A stretch of DNA of 64,000 nt from the human T2T-CHM13v2.0 reference genome, Homo sapiens: NCBI RefSeq assembly GCF_009914755.1, contig NC_060928.1, one strand, 5' to 3'. The notes under the pieces are model-generated. The model was not told the origin of the DNA, searched no databases, and saw only the letters and a program-made list of their open reading frames with translations. Made by a program: the position numbers and the translations under genes. Shown here one piece after another: positions 23,652 to 47,945 of this stretch; within the stretch, counting starts at the first letter, position 1; each line of letters starts with the position of its first letter.

Positions 23652-30898
<7,247 letters not shown>

Positions 30899-35900: not shown

Positions 35901-36801
35901 TGAAATAACTAACTGAAGTAAGTCACTTTTTTTCTTGTTTTTAGTGGGGAGATGTTTGATGCAACTGTGATTCATTCAGTGAAGAGGTAGCACCATAACA
36001 TTCTTACATTTAAGTATGTTTTAATGCTTTATGTTTTTTAATTCCACATGTGTGTATCCCAATTCTTAACTCTCAAAAATTATTTTATGAAAATTGGTGT
36101 AATAATTATGGTCACTATCAAAAAATTTAAGGTAATATTAACAGTATCTTCATTAACTTTAAAATTTTTAATATAAAGTAAGAAAATAGCGTCCTCCATT
36201 TCTTATTAAGCTGTATCTAGAGAAAATACAATAAGTAAATTCCTGTAACTTAAGGGCTGGAATTTAAATCAGAGTGTGTAAAAGGGCAACATGAATGCTA
36301 AATCCTACCTTCATGTTTTGATGCTTTTCCTTGATTGAAATGTTAATTTACTTATTTTTATTATATAACCAGATAATGGACCAATGGTACATACAGTGTA
36401 GAAATACACCAGTGATATTTTAAAGTACCAAACTTCTCCACTTTTGCTGTGGCAATCCAGTGAGAAGACATCTTCTGTCATGTAATCTTTGTACAGATCT
36501 GCACAAGGAAATATATTCCTCTACAAGAATTATTTAGCCTAAAATGAATCTATGAAGTTATTATAAAATACAATAAGAAGTATAAAACAATACAGACATC
36601 CTTTCCAAAGCAAGTGCATGGATATCCTACATTTTAGTTACAGGGATAATTAGTGACTTTCCTCATTTAAAAAAGAAATTTCTATTCCAAGGATGTTTCT
36701 GCAATTATACCATTATTATATATTACCTAGTGCCATGAAACATTCTGAGAGGTATCAGAGGAGTTGAGAGATTCTTCAGTAGGGATAGGAGATACTGTTT
36801 C

Positions 36802-37640: not shown

Positions 37641-40201
37641 AATTTCTTCATCCACAGTCTTCATCACTTACCAATTTCTGGAAAAGTCAGGGTGGGAGTT
37701 TTTATCCTGCTTACCCACTGCCTATAGAACATATAAAGGGATCTGAGTAAAGCAAGGAAGGTTATATGAAAAACTTAGCACGTCTTCATGTAAAAAAGAA
37801 CTGGTAGCAAATCCTGGTGAGCATTGAAAGAATATATTCAAAACATTCTTCCAGAACTGAAATCAGCAAGGCAGGAGTCAGAATGCCATTCTCATCATCA
37901 ACACAGGCATTTTGTTTCTCATTTGCCTATTTTATCCTTAGAACTTAAGTGACCTTGATTTAAGTGATGATCATTTTGAACACCTACCTTCAGAAGAAAA
38001 TTCACTGAATCCTCTGGCATACAACAGATCTTCATTTTTTAATCATCTTTTTAATAAATACAAGGTAACTTAAAATTTACCTGTGAATGTGATGGATCAC
38101 TCTGGAATAATTTTCTGATAAATACAGTATTAAATTCAGACAAAATAATTGTGGTAGGCAATAGAATTTTGTGGATACAAAATACCAGATGCCGCAGTCA
38201 GATCAAGTGGGCCCATACCCCAGGATCAACACTTAGTAGCAAAGGTCATCCAAGGAAATTGCTGACTTTCCATATGCCTTCATTTTCTCATCTGTAAAGT
38301 GGAGATAACACTAGTATAGACCAATAGAATTTTAAGTATCATATGAAATTAAGTAAAACAGTAAGCATGTGATAAATATAATTATTATTGTTCCAAGATT
38401 TAAAAAAAAATCAGCAGTTTCTCTTCTAATAAAACTCTTTATTACATAAATAAAACCATAAAAAAGATAATTAAGAATGAAAGAATAGTCATTTTTATCC
38501 TAGCTCTTTAATCTAACACATAAATAAAAATGAAATTCCAGATTCAGCATGCTTTCAGATACATATTAGCATCAACTTTCCCTTCTACCGATCGGCAGAA
38601 ATAAACTCTCAAAAGCAAATATTAATTTTCTACTGTTTTCTAGGCATTCTTATCTGAACTAACACATATAATTTTTACAAGAGTCATTAGTATTGTCCAT
38701 CTCATTTTATTTATGAGATGCAAAGGGCTAATTTGCCTGAAATCACGTTGTTAGCAGGTGACAGAAACTGCTAAATGCTTGCAGTAGCTGATGTCGTTGA
38801 GGTACCCAAATTTTCTCTTTGTGTTACTAGATTATGGAGTAATAAGTGAGATAATATATTTGCAACAAATAAACAAGTAAATGTCTAGTTCATGAAAGTG
38901 ACCTGGTATTATAAAATTGCATATCAGCATTATGCTTTCCAGGGGTAACACGCTTATTTTTCTTAGTATCTCATTTTAAGAATTCTGTGTACATGCATTT
39001 GTCAAATGTACCATTATTCAGACATAAATCAATAATCACTGTATTATTTGTATAGATTCCTCATGCTATGGTAATAGATAGTTCTCAAAATATTGTGTCA
39101 TATATGATATAAGATTATTTCTTCTTCACATCACTTCATATTCTAATGCAGGTATAATGTATGAATTTCATGTGCTACCTCTTGAACACATCACCTCCAA
39201 AGTTCCATATCAGAGTAAGAGAGAGATAGGGGAAAATACCAATTCTTATTGAATTGCTGTATTCAATGGCAATTGAATGGCACACACAACTTATCACAGC
39301 CCATTGGCCAGAACTAGACATATGCCTTCACACTACCTGCCAGGAAGTCTGGGAAATACAAAGGAGAAAGTGTAGCACTTACTCTCTCTACAATAGTATT
39401 GTGTCTATTAGTAATAGTGTGGGTGTGTGGGGAGGAGGGTGGAGATAATTTGGAGGGCAATCAAATCAAATTAATGAAACTTTTACTTTAAATTTTGAGT
39501 CATTATATATCGTATATATTCAAATTTTTGAATCCTGAAACATCTCCCTACAAAATACTGACTTGTATACTTCTAACAAATCAAAATCTTACTCAATACT
39601 CCTTACTCAGAAGTTTGGTCCTACTATGATAGCATCTGTGGATTACATCATGTACACTAACAGAAATGAATAACAAATGACTTTGGGATGTTAACTGCTT
39701 TGCTTTTACTAACAAATCTCTCTTGCAAGCATATAATTTATTGCTACCTTTTATTTCATTTTTCTAAGACTCACCTATAACAGTCAAGGTTATTATTTTT
39801 CCTTTGACTTGGCTAACTGTTAAGTCTCTGTTTTTACCAAATGTGTGTTACCAATGGTATCACACCCCTTACCACTCATCAAAAAATAACTAATTTATCC
39901 TGCAAAATAAAAGACTCAAAATCAAAAATCATAGACTTAAGTAATATATATAAAGGAATCAGACCTCACCGTGCTATTCCTTGAGCTCTGCTCCAAAGAT
40001 ATTCTTTCAGCAAAGAGCTTTTTCATTTCCCCTGTGCCAAGAGCTTTTCTACATACTGGGAACTTAAGCACAGACAATAGCAAGGAGCCTACTCCCACTG
40101 AAATTACATGAAGATGGCATTAAGCAGAAAATAAGTAAATTTAAAAATTCAAAATTAAGATAAAACAGGTGCTTAAAAAATACTCCTAAAACATAGTGCT
40201 A

Positions 40202-40591: not shown

Positions 40592-41170
40592 TATAGCAAG
40601 TCCTCACTTAATGTCTTGATTATATTCTTGGAAACTGACTTTGAGCAAGAGGACGTATAACAAAACCAATTTTACCATAGGCTAATTGATAGAAGAAAAA
40701 AAGTGTAAAGTTCCCATGGCATATTTCTGGTCACGAAAACATTGAAATAAATGTAAGCTATACATAAATTTAAGAAAGATTAATAAAAACAAATAAGAAA
40801 ATCATTTACCCAATTTTTGGTGAGTCAATGAGCAATGGCAGTCATGGTGGTGGTAGGTTAGATCAAAATGTAAATGTCTGCAAAACAAAAATTGTAAGGA
40901 GCACCTCCGACCTACCACCATGCAGTTCAAAAACAAACAATAATTAATGTGATGGTCTTGCTGAGCTCTTTTGGACCACACTGTCTGTTGTTGTGCATTT
41001 ATATGATCTTTTACCATTTTTATTTTATATCCTTTACAATTTTTATTTTTCAATAATTTGTCTTCATTCATTCATTCATTTTCCAACTTGTTTATTTCAG
41101 TTTCAATGGTGAGAGACTATCCTAGCAGCTTAGGGCACAAGGTGGGAACAGCCCTGTACAGGATGATGTC
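40592..41170 (-). mobile_element. MER6-family (TcMar-Tigger) DNA transposon
   Basis: aagtcctcacttaa...ttcttggaaactg...accaattttaccataggctaattg is the reverse complement of the end of the 46440 copy. Confidence 0.65.
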
Positions 41171-43560: not shown

Positions 43561-46439
43561 ATTTTTTGCCACCTCTCCCTATCACTATCATATACAAACC
43601 ACCATAATCTCTCACTGATTATCACAATCACCTTCACCTCCTAACCTCTCCTTTCTTATGTCTTCCACATCCTCCTAATGTGTTTTCTACACAGCAGTAA
43701 AAGGGATCATGTCATAGTCATCTCTGTCCTCCTGAAATTCTGCAAGTGAATCACTGTGTCTCATGCACAAGTTTAACGAGGAGAATAAAGTATTTAAATA
43801 AGTGAATCATATATTTAAGATTTATTTTTCCAATAAAAGTACAAAAGCAATTCTACTATTCTACAAAGGAAACGTTCACTGTATTTATATTGACAAACAT
43901 TGCTTTTTAGCAGTCTGGAATATCTCTTTTTTAAATTAAAGAGATAAAGAAGACATCTACAAAGAATACTGCAAATCTCTCATGCTGTGATCCCTTTTTT
44001 ATAATAGAGGAGATTAAAAACTTCTCGAAATGATAAAGGATATGAAAGCCATTAATTCTTTGAGTAACCATATAAATTACTAGTGGTGCTGAGATGAAAA
44101 GACTGGTTTGTTTAAAGATAACAGGCCCTGAGTTTTTTAAAGAGTTTATATAGCTGTAAATCTAGGCATTAGATCCTTTCAGAAGAATTATTTGCTTATC
44201 ATTAATCTTGGAAATAAGGTAATTTTGTTAGCAACAACTTTATTCCCTCTGTTCTCTTTATATATGTGCCAGAGGAGAAGTTATTCAAAGAATGGCAGTA
44301 AAGTTTCTTGTGGAAAGCTATACTGATTGTATCTTAAATAAACCATTGATTAATTAAAATTCAATGATTTGTGAAGGGGAAAGTAGGTTAAGGAGTTATA
44401 AAAATAATACACAGCATAAGCACTGTGCATGACGATGCTAATATTAAATATTATCTAAGATTTACTTATCATACTACTAAGAAAAATGTGAAGTTCAAAA
44501 GCCCAAAAGAAGTATCAATAGTACATTGTCAATATATATGTCTGTGTAGGGTTGGGTCATATATCTCATTGCTTTGAAATGTATTTCTTTTTTCCAAAAC
44601 ATTTCATTATTTTTTCCCCTTCCTGTTCATTGCTTGCCATGTGAAATAAAACTTCTCTATACATCTCAATCACAAAACAATGCAGCTTCTTTTCTTAGGG
44701 GTGTTTATCTCTTTCACTGTGTGAAAGTACAGCATTGCTTTCATTACTTGGACAATAAATATATTCTCACTAAAATCAAAATTACATCCTGCCACTCTCT
44801 TCCTGTGCTTTTCTTTTTACACATTTCTTTTGTTTCAATGCAAAATCTGATGTAATATTTTACAGGACATTAAAATGTGAATTTAATAAAAAATTCACTA
44901 TTTTTAAAACTTAATCTAAACACAGTAAGGAGACATCTATTATTAGATAGATCGTGAGTTGAGGATATTTAAATATGAAAAACATGCACCTAAGGATCAA
45001 AGAAATCCAGCAACTTTGAGCCGATCATAAAAGATAATAAAATGGTAAATCAAAGATTATACATGGAGATGTCAGAGGAATTATTAATGATTTAAAATGA
45101 TTTAAACTTTTCTTGCCTACAGCATGAATAACTAAAGTATGATTTCATAAATTATTTTAGATATATGAAAACAGTGACATATAATTCATGAGAAATTAAC
45201 CTCCATCTACATAGGGAGGGAGAGTAGAATTAGTCTCAATCCAAATAGAAGGACCAAATAAATATGCAATATGGAGGTTATGGGTTGCTCTTCATATGGG
45301 TCTTAATCCCAAATTTCCCACATCCTAAAACTCCGCCTAACTCCTTTAAGCCTCAGATTTCCTCATCTTCAAAAAAAAGAAGGTAATGACTTAGAATCTT
45401 ACAAATTCATATATAGAATTGATGAAAGAATATTGTAAAGAATTTGGCATAGCTTAATCACTCAAAAATCTTTCTTCATGTTAACATTATTATTAAGTCA
45501 TTTAACAGGAAATAAGCCACCACTTCTAAATAAATTGAAACAGAGGGTCGTTTTCAAGCAAGTAGCCTTTATATATACAATTTAATGCTTCCCACTCAGT
45601 TTCAACACTTTCACACGAATTATTTTATGCATACATGACACATTCAAAACCCTGAAATAATAATAGAAAGTTTTTGGGAAAATAATAAAAATAAAATGGT
45701 AATTAATTAATTAGTGAGAAAATTAATTACATTATTTGAATAATAAAATAGTATTATTGTCATATCCAAGTATCTAACTCTTTTGACTATGAGAAAGTGG
45801 AAGTATTTCTCTTGGAATAGTTCTATCAACATTTCATTAGCATTCAATTAGCATTCAACGTTGAATTTAATATTTTATAAATGTATTGGCTAGTTTTACT
45901 TATAATGTTTTACTGTGGTTTCTATTTCAAAATATAATTGGATTCTCATTTATTTTAACTAGCAAAAAAACTTTTATGAAAAGTTTTTATTATTAACCAA
46001 AAATATTTATTAATTGAAACTGTGTTTTTCTATTTTTCCTTAGCATTTAAATGACCATGAATATGATCAAAACAACGTTCATATTAAACACCTAACTATA
46101 GAATAGACTCCCTGGTTTTCTGGTGATCAATATACCTGTTTTGTGTACACCATTCATGGATACAGGTAACTTATGATTTACCCTGGATGTAACAAATGAG
46201 CTCTAAATTGTTTTGTTATAAAATATTCCATAAACTCAGACAAAAATATGCGTAATAGATAGTAGAGTATATTGGTTTAGTGGTTAAATAATATGGATCT
46301 GGAATCAGATAAAATAGAATTAATGCTAGAATAAGCTACAATAGGTTAAAAATTTCAGGTTCATTAATTAAAAAGAATGTAGCTCAAGGCAAATTGTTTC
46401 TCTGGTGTTTTCTCAAACAGCACTGGGAAAATGCTAGTA

Positions 46440-46905
46440 CAGCAGGTGTTCACATAACATCATTTAGTTAAACGTCGTTTTGTTACAACGTTGATGAGAA
46501 AAATGTATACCGAATCCAGCTGGAGCCACTGTCTATGGAATATGCACATTCTCCCCCTTGACTTCATGCATTTCTCCAGATACTCCAGTTTCCTCTCACA
46601 TTCCAGAGATGTGCATGTTCTGGCCACCTGCAGCCCTGAACTGGAATCGTTGGGTAATCAATTGTCTTACTTGTTTTTATTAACCTTCTTAAATGTATGT
46701 ATGACTCACATTTATTTCAGTGTTTAATATTAGAAGTGTTTTGGTCTTTATTTAGAAGTTTGGTGATGGTTTTATGAGCAGAAATATACCATAAGAATTT
46801 AACTCTTGTTTATATCCATTAGCTATTGGTTTCCTTAGACATCATTTCACTTAAAGTCACAGTTTCCAAGAACCTATCAACAATGTTAAATGAGGGCTTA
46901 GCATA
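46440..46905 (+). mobile_element. MER6A-like DNA transposon
   Basis: ta cagcaggt...aacgtcgttttgttacaacgttgatgagaaaaa...gcacattctcccc...agtttccaagaacctatc. Confidence 0.7.
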
Positions 46906-47579
46906 CTGAACTAATAATTTTTAGTAGCATATGAGATTATGTAATATGTCTATAATATAGTAAGCACTCACTAAATTCTGTTATTGCCGTATCCTTTTAC
47001 ATATCAATGGGATTTTTCCTTCAGAAAAAAATTCCTTTCTGTGCAAATAAAATCAGTCAAGTACTGGCAAGTACAATTATTTCTCACCTAGCCTCCTGAC
47101 TTATCTAAAATATAAAAGTGAACATTTCCAGAAATAGTCTAAATCCAATTAGCTTTCCACCTTTTCATAGGAGTAAAGTCTTGAGTACATTTTACTAAAA
47201 TAAAGGAGGCAAACAGGATGTGGAGGAAGTAAGTTGTAGAAAACAAGTGATTATCTGGTTTCTTCATGAATACTCCAGAAAATGTGAATTTAATACTACT
47301 GGAAAGAACCAGCCCACTTTTAGAAAATTAAAGTTAATTAAATTGACCCCAAAATGATCAATATAATATTTTACAATATTACTACTAAAGTTGAGAGAAG
47401 AATAACCATATTGGAGTTAGGATGGTTGGTACAGACATATCATTTGTAAAAACCCAACCCTCATACTTGCCCCTGTCTTCGAACCACAATTTTAGAATAT
47501 ATGTTAAAATAACATAATCTTAAAACATCCACAAGCCCTCCTTCTTCCCTTCTCCTCACTCCACATCCCTCTGCAATTC

Positions 47580-47790: not shown

Positions 47791-47794
47791 TGCT

Positions 47795-47945
47795 CTGATT
47801 GGCAGGAAAATCACCCAAGGATTTTTCTGGCCTGCAGATTCAATTCAGCGGGTCCGCAGTGGAGACTGAAATTCTGCATTTCCAACAGATTCCAGGTGAT
47901 GCCGATGCTGCTGGGCTAGAAGCCACAGTTGTGCAACAAGGCAAT
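47795..47945. mobile_element. MER5-family hAT fragment
   Basis: tctgcatttccaacagattccaggtgatgccgatgctgctgg. Confidence 0.7.

What the first reader, a model, noticed from the sequence alone, without database searches (positions are those of the whole stretch)
46044..46165. 122-nt exon with strong splice sites encoding a decayed PRR27-exon-4-like peptide
Seen: tgtttttctatttttccttag|CAT TTA AAT GAC CAT...GGA TAC AG|gtaact translates as HLNDHEYDQNNVHIKHLTIE*TPWFSGDQYTCFVYTIHGY. Three blocks line up in order with PRR27 exon 4: HLNDHEY/DDNDDGH at the exon start, [20 protein letters not shown], and [16 protein letters not shown]. One TAG and a length not divisible by 3 indicate pseudogenisation. The His/Tyr-rich composition is reminiscent of histatin/statherin-type SCPPs. 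Homology is an inference from alignment by eye.
Basis: partly seen in the sequence, partly recalled or inferred. Interest (0 to 1): 0.72.

Follow-up and report, generated by a model that had tools for sequence, protein, structure and literature searches.

The report
Decayed twin exon downstream of PRR27
The segment is a real exon-like relic: a broken tandem copy of an intact, unannotated exon 8 kb upstream, joined to PRR27 by splicing in a marmoset gene model, and not a copy of PRR27's own large exon.

Summary

The claimed homology to the large PRR27 exon is not above chance:
- BLASTP gave 6/18 identities.
- A PRR27 profile HMM scored -1.1 bits, and 55 of 1000 shuffles did as well.
- In a Smith-Waterman test, 154 of 2000 shuffles did as well.

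What is there instead is a pair of old tandem copies. 46025-46275 matches 37922-38174 at 64.5% over 262 columns (E 9e-16; z = 20). The upstream copy holds an exon at 37942-38064, which is 123 nt, open only in phase 0, and carries an S-E-E motif. The splice sites are the best-kept parts of the pair.

Compared with that twin, the candidate has a TAG where the twin has GAA, plus a net loss of 7 nt.

The real link to PRR27 is by splicing. NCBI's marmoset PRR27 model joins the large exon directly to the orthologue of this exon and ends at the same codon.

The most likely reading is a decayed duplicate exon that survives as a cryptic or alternative 3' exon of PRR27. Interest is moderate to low.

The parts
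46044..46165 (+). Candidate exon, 122 nt. Frame 1 is open for 20 codons, then TAG, and the 3' half is frame-shifted relative to its paralogue.
   Evidence: It is the orthologue of the last 20 codons of the marmoset PRR27 model P0017 (16/20 identical, E 6e-10; tblastn to 46035-46103, E 1e-7).
46104..46106 (+). TAG stop. It aligns with the second GAA of the S-E-E motif in the paralogue, and it is the same codon at which the marmoset model ends.
46023..46043 (+). Pyrimidine tract and AG acceptor.
   Evidence: Acceptor count 18/21. 17/20 identical to the paralogue's acceptor flank.
46166..46275 (+). Donor gtaact plus about 110 nt of intron that is still alignable with the paralogue.
   Evidence: Donor 8/9. 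The best 19-nt window of the whole alignment is the donor, at 17/19. The intron part is 69/111 identical.
37942..38064 (+). Intact paralogous exon, 123 nt, open only in phase 0: NLSDLDLSDDHFEHLPSEENSLNPLAYNRSSFFNHLFNKYK. It carries an S-E-E (S-x-E) motif and is not annotated in the hub's RefSeq table.
   Evidence: It is one of two open phase-0 exon candidates on the + strand of 35.9-64 kb; the other adjoins a CT-rich masked repeat. Acceptor 17/21, donor 8/9.
37922..38174 (+). Paralogous block that matches 46025-46275.
   Evidence: 64.5% over 262 columns, E 9e-16, and reciprocal best hit in the window. Local score 48 against 12.4 +/- 1.8 in shuffles, 0 of 300 as high.
38328..38542 (+). Second collinear block of the same old duplication. 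It matches 46916-47132 and has no exon features.
   Evidence: 59.7% over 231 columns, E 3e-4. Local score 25 against 13.0 +/- 1.9, 0 of 300 shuffles as high.
46916..47132 (+). Partner of the second collinear block.
27610..28182 (+). PRR27 large exon (RefSeq exon 3). In the marmoset model its phase-0 donor is joined to the orthologue of the candidate exon.

Best explanation
The segment is one of two diverged tandem copies of an old exon lying downstream of PRR27, on the same strand. The upstream copy (37942-38064) is still an open, symmetrical phase-0 exon with an S-x-E motif. The candidate copy (46044-46165) is broken: it has a TAG at codon 21 and a net loss of 7 nt in its 3' half. It has nevertheless kept a strong acceptor and donor. 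Because PRR27's large exon ends in phase 0, read-through PRR27 transcripts can splice onto it. The reading frame then runs 20 codons (HLNDHEYDQNNVHIKHLTIE) and stops, replacing the usual three-residue tail (ANQ). NCBI's marmoset PRR27 model does exactly this. In humans it is most likely a rarely used cryptic or alternative 3' exon with no protein function of its own. It is not a decayed copy of PRR27's large exon. Shown: the paralogy, the decay relative to the twin, the better conservation of the splice sites, and the marmoset junction. Inferred: that the pair once coded, that the exon is used in human transcripts, and that the duplication is roughly as old as the eutherian radiation. The age estimate uses about 0.5 substitutions per site (from 63% identity) and mutation rates recalled from memory.
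For: Paralogy: z = 20, with 0 of 300 shuffles as high; E 9e-16 and reciprocal best hit; a second collinear block. The splice sites are the best-kept parts: acceptor flank 17/20 and donor window 17/19, against exon 39/63 and 29/66 and intron 69/111. Both copies have a donor score of 8/9 and acceptor scores of 17-18/21, as good as or better than most of the 9 annotated internal exons scored. Decay: TAG replaces GAA; the distance from the shared CACCTA anchor to the donor is 84 nt in the twin and 77 nt in the candidate; and the ancestral register in the candidate's 3' half is its frame 2. Link to PRR27: P0017 (NCBI 'proline-rich protein 27 [Callithrix jacchus]') ends ...PSPSFDQ|HLNDHKYDQDNVHIKHLNME, with the junction exactly at the predicted acceptor and the end at the same codon as the human TAG. 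No second signal-peptide exon exists in the window besides PRR27's at 23652. Not a repeat family: the donor block occurs 3 times in the 3.1-Gb genome, two of which are this pair (control 1). The third occurrence has no wider similarity. No third copy was found in 274 kb of the cluster.
Against: Only 1 of the 36 PRR27-family proteins compared carries this exon, and none carries the twin. The marmoset model also has an odd N-terminus without a signal peptide. It could be a computational extension rather than a transcript-backed one, and I could not see its evidence. Human RefSeq has no such isoform (hub table). Human and marmoset differ at 4 of 20 residues. That is about what neutral drift would give, using a divergence figure recalled from memory, so nothing shows constraint on the tail. 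Differences between the two copies fall 8/5/4 on codon positions 1/2/3 in 18 codons, so there is no sign of protein-level purifying selection. The exon lies about 10 kb beyond PRR27's annotated 3' end.
Confidence: 0.58

Rival explanations
1. Both exons are the last remains of a separate SCPP gene between PRR27 and ODAM that died and lost its 5' exons. The marmoset junction would then be read-through splicing onto a dead neighbour's exon.
For: The exons lie 2 kb and 10 kb beyond PRR27's annotated end (hub table). They are absent from 35 of 36 PRR27-family proteins, including those of rodents, horse, rhinoceros, tenrec, colugo and alpaca. The twin has the phase-0 symmetry and S-x-E motif typical of SCPP exons.
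Against: No signal-peptide exon exists in 36-64 kb. Apart from the twin, the only open phase-0 exon candidate there adjoins a CT-rich repeat. No detectable relative was found in the 200 kb upstream, in the ODAM 10 kb, or elsewhere in the genome. No annotated protein holds the twin exon.
Confidence: 0.2
2. The pair is a non-coding segmental duplication. The splice-like sites and the open frame of the twin are chance, and the marmoset model is an ab initio artefact.
For: Exon identity (39/63 and 29/66) is no higher than intron identity (69/111). There is no third-position excess (8/5/4). A 123-nt stretch is open in a given frame in 4.4% of shuffles and 7.8% of real windows.
Against: After about 37% divergence, both copies keep acceptor and donor at the same positions. 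These are the best-conserved windows of the alignment (17/20 and 17/19). Site pairs this strong are rare: 3 on the + strand and 0 on the - strand in 64 kb. The twin is one of only two open phase-0 candidates in 28 kb.
Confidence: 0.14
3. One reading: the exon is a pseudogenised paralogue of PRR27's large exon.
For: There is one weak ungapped match, PWFSGDQYTCFVYTIHGY against [18 protein letters not shown], with 6/18 identities and E 0.037 in a single comparison. It recurs in other primates' PRR27 at E 1.6-6.6.
Against: The HMM scores -1.1 bits and 55 of 1000 shuffles match it. 154 of 2000 shuffles match the Smith-Waterman score. DNA comparison to the PRR27 exon gives z = 2.1. The matched part is read out of the ancestral frame, and the intact twin shows nothing (330 of 1000 and 746 of 2000 shuffles as high). 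The lengths are 122 nt against 573 nt, and the candidate has 1 proline in 40 residues against 44 in 191.
Confidence: 0.05

Closest known systems
Terminal coding exon of the NCBI marmoset PRR27 model (P0017, 'proline-rich protein 27 [Callithrix jacchus]')
   Same: Orthologous sequence (16/20 residues), the same acceptor position, the same stop position, and joined to the donor of the large PRR27 exon.
   Different: Human RefSeq does not annotate it. The canonical PRR27 of most of the 36 family proteins compared ends in a three-residue tail (ANQ, VKK, VQK, VKE and the like) from a different exon.
Unannotated exon at 37942-38064 of this window (the twin)
   Same: Tandem paralogue: the same splice-site positions and 63-64.5% DNA identity across exon and flanks.
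   Different: The twin is open, 123 nt, and keeps S-E-E. The candidate has a TAG, a 6-nt in-frame insertion and a net -7 nt.
Large exon of PRR27 (window 27610-28182)
   Same: Same strand, same gene neighbourhood, and phase-0 boundaries that allow in-frame joining.
   Different: No significant sequence similarity at the protein or DNA level, a very different length, and a very different proline content.
SCPP-family exons in general (caseins, statherin/histatins, ODAM). Their features are recalled from the literature, not tested against a library.
   Same: Location in the SCPP cluster, phase-0 symmetry and an S-x-E motif in the twin.
   Different: No detectable similarity to CSN1S2BP exons, to the 200 kb upstream that holds CSN1S2AP, HTN1 and HTN3, or to the ODAM region. 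No Pfam family matched.

Membership tests
   The HMM of 14 sequences (marmoset left out) scores -1.1 bits, and 55 of 1000 shuffles are as high. BLASTP gives E 0.037 for a single comparison and E 1.6 against 36 proteins. 154 of 2000 shuffles reach the Smith-Waterman score.
Judged against the intact twin, the candidate's 3' half is shifted.
   1 proline in 40 residues, against 44 in 191.
Exon of PRR27 transcripts (alternative 3' exon) | Joined to a PRR27 exon in a transcript or gene model | tested here: met
   Met for the marmoset model P0017 only. The evidence behind that model was not visible to me.
Exon of PRR27 transcripts (alternative 3' exon) | Spliced in human RNA | not testable with these tools
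   No transcript or read data are on hand. The RefSeq table from the hub has no such exon.
SCPP-gene exon | Phase-0 symmetrical exon with an S-x-E motif, inside the SCPP cluster (criteria recalled from the SCPP literature) | tested here: inconclusive
   The twin meets it: 123 nt, open only in frame 1, with S-E-E. The candidate does not: 122 nt, and I-E-stop in place of S-E-E.
SCPP-gene exon | Belongs to a gene with its own signal-peptide exon | tested here: not met
   The only signal-peptide-like exon with a donor in the window is PRR27's at 23652.
Histatin/statherin-type peptide | Sequence similarity to the HTN/STATH loci | tested here: not met
   The 200 kb upstream includes HTN1 and HTN3 by the hub's coordinates. 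The best tblastn hit is E 0.19 and the best blastn hit is E 0.008, and both are short. nhmmer gives E >= 1.6.
Interspersed repeat (transposon) copies | Many copies in the genome | tested here: not met
   A genome-wide protein search finds only the exon itself. The donor block occurs 3 times in the genome, against 1 for the control. No copy was found in 274 kb by nhmmer or blastn. The DNA search of the genome was too insensitive to count, because it missed the known twin.
Leucine-rich repeat | Match to Pfam LRR models | tested here: not met
   0 Pfam families at E <= 10. There are only weak LRR hits: one plant protein at E 6e-4 and two PDB chains at E 0.57 and 0.97.

The most novel reading that the evidence does not exclude
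The intact twin at 37942-38064 is a live or recently live coding exon carrying a phosphorylatable S-x-E motif. Together with the decayed copy, it is the remnant of an unrecognised C-terminal module of ancestral PRR27, or of a lost SCPP gene between PRR27 and ODAM. That would add a missing piece to the history of the casein/saliva/enamel gene cluster.
Probability: 0.15. Interest if true: 0.55.

Novelty: new member of a known kind. Interest (0 to 1): 0.3.

Why it matters
PRR27 is a poorly understood secreted protein of saliva and tears, encoded in the SCPP cluster. If the pair is confirmed, it has two consequences. First, PRR27's transcription unit can reach at least 10 kb beyond its annotated end in primates. 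Second, the PRR27-ODAM interval holds an old duplicated exon module, one copy of which is still open. That would be useful for annotation and for reconstructing how SCPP genes gain and lose exons. It does not change any established picture, and nothing here shows a function.

Tried and rejected
1. SCPPPQ1. I recalled that it might lie between PRR27 and ODAM. A motif of human SCPPPQ1 quoted in PMC8660882 is absent from all six frames of the window. A passage of PMC4174742 places SCPPPQ1 after AMTN. Rejected.

2. CSN1S2-type exon. There is no DNA similarity to any of the 8 CSN1S2BP exons (z <= 1.4), and nothing in the upstream 200 kb that holds CSN1S2AP.

3. Larger gene duplication. A sensitive self-comparison of 36-64 kb against the window gave only interspersed repeats plus this pair.

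4. Homologue searches for the twin. There were 0 hits among longer proteins in the 5.8-billion-protein set. The single representative hit is a plant LRR protein. There were 0 Pfam families, only weak PDB hits, and only itself in the human genome.

5. Third copy. The chr18 match to the donor block does not extend beyond the block.

6. Ab initio hunt for companion exons in 35.9-64 kb. This yielded only the twin and one repeat-adjacent candidate at 47791-47895.

Only the ODAM 10 kb was examined, so FDCSP, CSN3 and beyond were not compared.

Full report
**Observation.** The window reads tgtttttctatttttccttag|CATTTAAATGACC...GGATACAG|gtaact at 46044-46165. Frame 1 gives HLNDHEYDQNNVHIKHLTIE*TPWFSGDQYTCFVYTIHGY. 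The TAG is at 46104-46106 and the length is 122 nt. Its translation holds the three cited strings.

I scored splice sites with a simple count: pyrimidines in a 21-nt acceptor window, and matches to the donor consensus MAG|GTRAGT, which I recalled from memory. The candidate scores 18/21 and 8/9. The 9 annotated internal exons I scored range from 14 to 19 and from 6 to 9. Only 3 acceptor-donor pairs this strong and 60-250 nt apart exist on the + strand of the window, and none on the - strand. The splice-like sites are therefore unusual, not routine.

**The claimed PRR27 homology.**
- I collected PRR27 proteins from primates and a rhinoceros and aligned 15 of them.
- I built a profile from 14, leaving the marmoset out. 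The candidate scores -1.1 bits, and 55 of 1000 shuffled peptides score as high.
- A BLOSUM62 Smith-Waterman test gives 30 against 22.8 +/- 4.5, with 154 of 2000 shuffles as high.
- At the DNA level the best local score against the PRR27 exon has z = 2.1.
- The candidate has 1 proline in 40 residues, against 44 in 191 for the PRR27 exon.

The orthologue condition could not be tested.

**What the segment resembles instead.** A blastn of the candidate with 300-nt flanks against the window gave two collinear hits near 37.9-38.1 kb. Aligned properly, 46025-46275 matches 37922-38174 at 64.5% over 262 columns. E is 9e-16 and the two are reciprocal best hits. The local score is 48 against 12.4 +/- 1.8 in shuffles, and 0 of 300 shuffles are as high. 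A second collinear block, 38328-38542 against 46916-47132, is weaker but real: score 25 against 13.0 +/- 1.9, with 0 of 300 as high. This is an old tandem duplication of a genomic segment.

The upstream copy contains ccttag|AAC...AAG|gtaact at 37942-38064. It is 123 nt and open only in frame 1, reading NLSDLDLSDDHFEHLPSEENSLNPLAYNRSSFFNHLFNKYK with an S-E-E motif. The other two frames have 3 and 7 stops. An open frame of that length arises by chance in 4.4% of shuffles and 7.8% of real 123-nt windows, so the open frame alone is weak evidence.

Among all acceptor-donor pairs of moderate strength in 35.9-64 kb on the + strand, only two form an open phase-0 exon. One is this exon. The other sits beside a CT-rich masked repeat.

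**Pattern of conservation between the copies.**

| Part | Identity |
|---|---|
| Acceptor flank | 17/20 |
| First half of exon | 39/63 |
| Second half of exon | 29/66 |
| Intron | 69/111 |
| Best 19-nt window (the donor, AGGTAACTTANNATTTACC) | 17/19 |

The splice signals are the best-kept parts, which argues that both copies were spliced for a long time. In contrast, differences in 18 in-frame codon pairs fall 8/5/4 on codon positions 1/2/3. There is therefore no sign of protein-level constraint.

**Decay of the candidate relative to its twin.**
- The TAG aligns with the second GAA of S-E-E.
- The candidate has a 6-nt in-frame insertion near the start.
- From the shared CACCTA anchor to the donor, the twin has 84 nt and the candidate 77 nt.
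- The ancestral register in the candidate's 3' half is its frame 2 (..NRLPGFLVINIP..), not frame 1.

**The real link to PRR27.** In the PRR27 alignment, the NCBI model 'proline-rich protein 27 [Callithrix jacchus]' (P0017, 167 aa) ends ...PSPSFDQ|HLNDHKYDQDNVHIKHLNME.
- The last 20 residues match the candidate at 16/20 (E 6e-10 against 36 proteins). tblastn maps them to 46035-46103 (E 1e-7).
- The junction is exactly at the predicted acceptor, and the model ends at the codon where human has TAG.
- The stop therefore predates the split of New World monkeys from catarrhines. In that model it is the normal end of the reading frame.

A wider search brought in 19 further PRR27-family proteins, from rodents, horse, tenrec, colugo and alpaca plus four unnamed entries. 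Of the 36 family proteins compared in all, only the marmoset model has this exon, and none has the twin.

There are caveats. The marmoset model starts with a non-signal N-terminus that maps to 27088-27168. I could not see what evidence supports the model. Four changes in 20 residues between human and marmoset is about the neutral expectation, using a divergence figure recalled from memory.

**Search for relatives of the pair.**
- Pfam: 0 families for the twin at E <= 10.
- The 5.8-billion-protein set: 0 hits among longer proteins. That set does hold mammalian proteomes, as one search shows.
- Representatives: 1 hit at E 6e-4, a plant leucine-rich-repeat protein matched in 5 stretches.
- PDB: two LRR chains at E 0.57 and 0.97.
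- Human genome, six frames: only itself, plus one hit at E 2.76.
- The 200 kb upstream (CSN1S2AP, HTN1 and HTN3 by the hub's coordinates), the window itself and the ODAM 10 kb: no third copy by blastn, nhmmer or tblastn.

The pair is not a repeat family. The donor block occurs 3 times in the genome against 1 for the control, and the chr18 match does not extend beyond the block. No second signal-peptide exon exists in the window.

**Literature.** Three searches were run:
- 90 papers, 25 listed;
- 1 paper;
- 26 papers, 25 listed.

None of the listed titles or abstract openings concerns these exons or the exon structure of PRR27. I read passages only, not whole texts, of three papers:
- PMC4174742 gives the position of SCPPPQ1 and notes that mouse 4930432K09Rik is longer than human C4orf40.
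- PMC8660882 supplied the human SCPPPQ1 motif.
- PMC12457735 has a gene table and nothing on this interval.

No supplements were consulted. Kawasaki et al. 2011 is recalled only. My recollection that SCPPPQ1 lies in this interval was wrong.

**Verdict.** The segment is a decayed tandem twin of an intact unannotated exon. It has kept its splice signals, and at least one primate gene model uses it as an alternative last coding exon of PRR27. It is not a paralogue of PRR27's large exon. Three things remain open:
- whether the pair began as part of PRR27 or as part of a lost neighbouring gene;
- whether the intact twin still codes;
- whether human transcripts use either exon.

These tools hold no non-human genomes and no transcript data, so none of these could be settled.

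Noticed in passing
window 37942-38064: The first 25-28 residues of the intact twin (LSDLDLSDDHFEHLPSEENSLNPL) fit a leucine-rich-repeat spacing. The only weak hits anywhere are LRR proteins: a plant protein at E 6e-4 and two PDB chains at E 0.57 and 0.97. Pfam LRR models do not match. This is probably chance.
   Followed up: partly
window 30290-30340 and 35943-35987: The alternative C-terminal tail of an orangutan PRR27 model (P0008) maps to two unannotated human segments at 16/17 and 15/15 identity. One lies just beyond the annotated 3' end of PRR27. This is further sign that PRR27 transcripts or models use varied downstream exons in primates.
   Followed up: no
window 27088-27168: The non-signal N-terminus of the marmoset PRR27 model maps here (19/27 identical, E 4e-6), inside PRR27 intron 2 and next to a masked repeat. 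It is a likely alternative first exon.
   Followed up: no
PRR27 proteins P0018, P0023, P0026, P0029-P0031, P0036, P0039: Rhinoceros, horse, rodent and alpaca PRR27, and two unnamed entries, carry a short S-x-E cluster (SSSEE, SPSSTEE and similar) just before the conserved DY.. start of the large exon. The primate proteins lack it, so primates seem to have lost an SCPP-type phospho-serine exon.
   Followed up: no
window 40598-40813 vs 46650-46899: An inverted pair of similar segments (84% over 77 nt and 68% over 148 nt). One arm overlaps the first listed exon of the minus-strand lncRNA LOC105377270, and the other lies 500 nt downstream of the candidate exon. They are probably two copies of an interspersed repeat.
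   Followed up: no
window 47791-47895: A 105-nt open phase-0 exon-like interval (acceptor 21/21, donor 7/9). Its acceptor is the end of a CT-rich masked simple repeat, so it is likely spurious.
   Followed up: no
window 46231-46249 and 38131-38148: An intronic block, TAAAYTCAGAC(A)AAAATA, about 66-84 nt past the donor is kept at 16/19 between the two copies. That is as well conserved as the exon core. It could be a splicing control element.
   Followed up: no
protein P0025: A Scotinomys 'hypothetical protein' fuses a PRR27-like N-terminal part to an unrelated C-terminal domain (PF13815). It looks like a gene-model fusion artefact.
   Followed up: no
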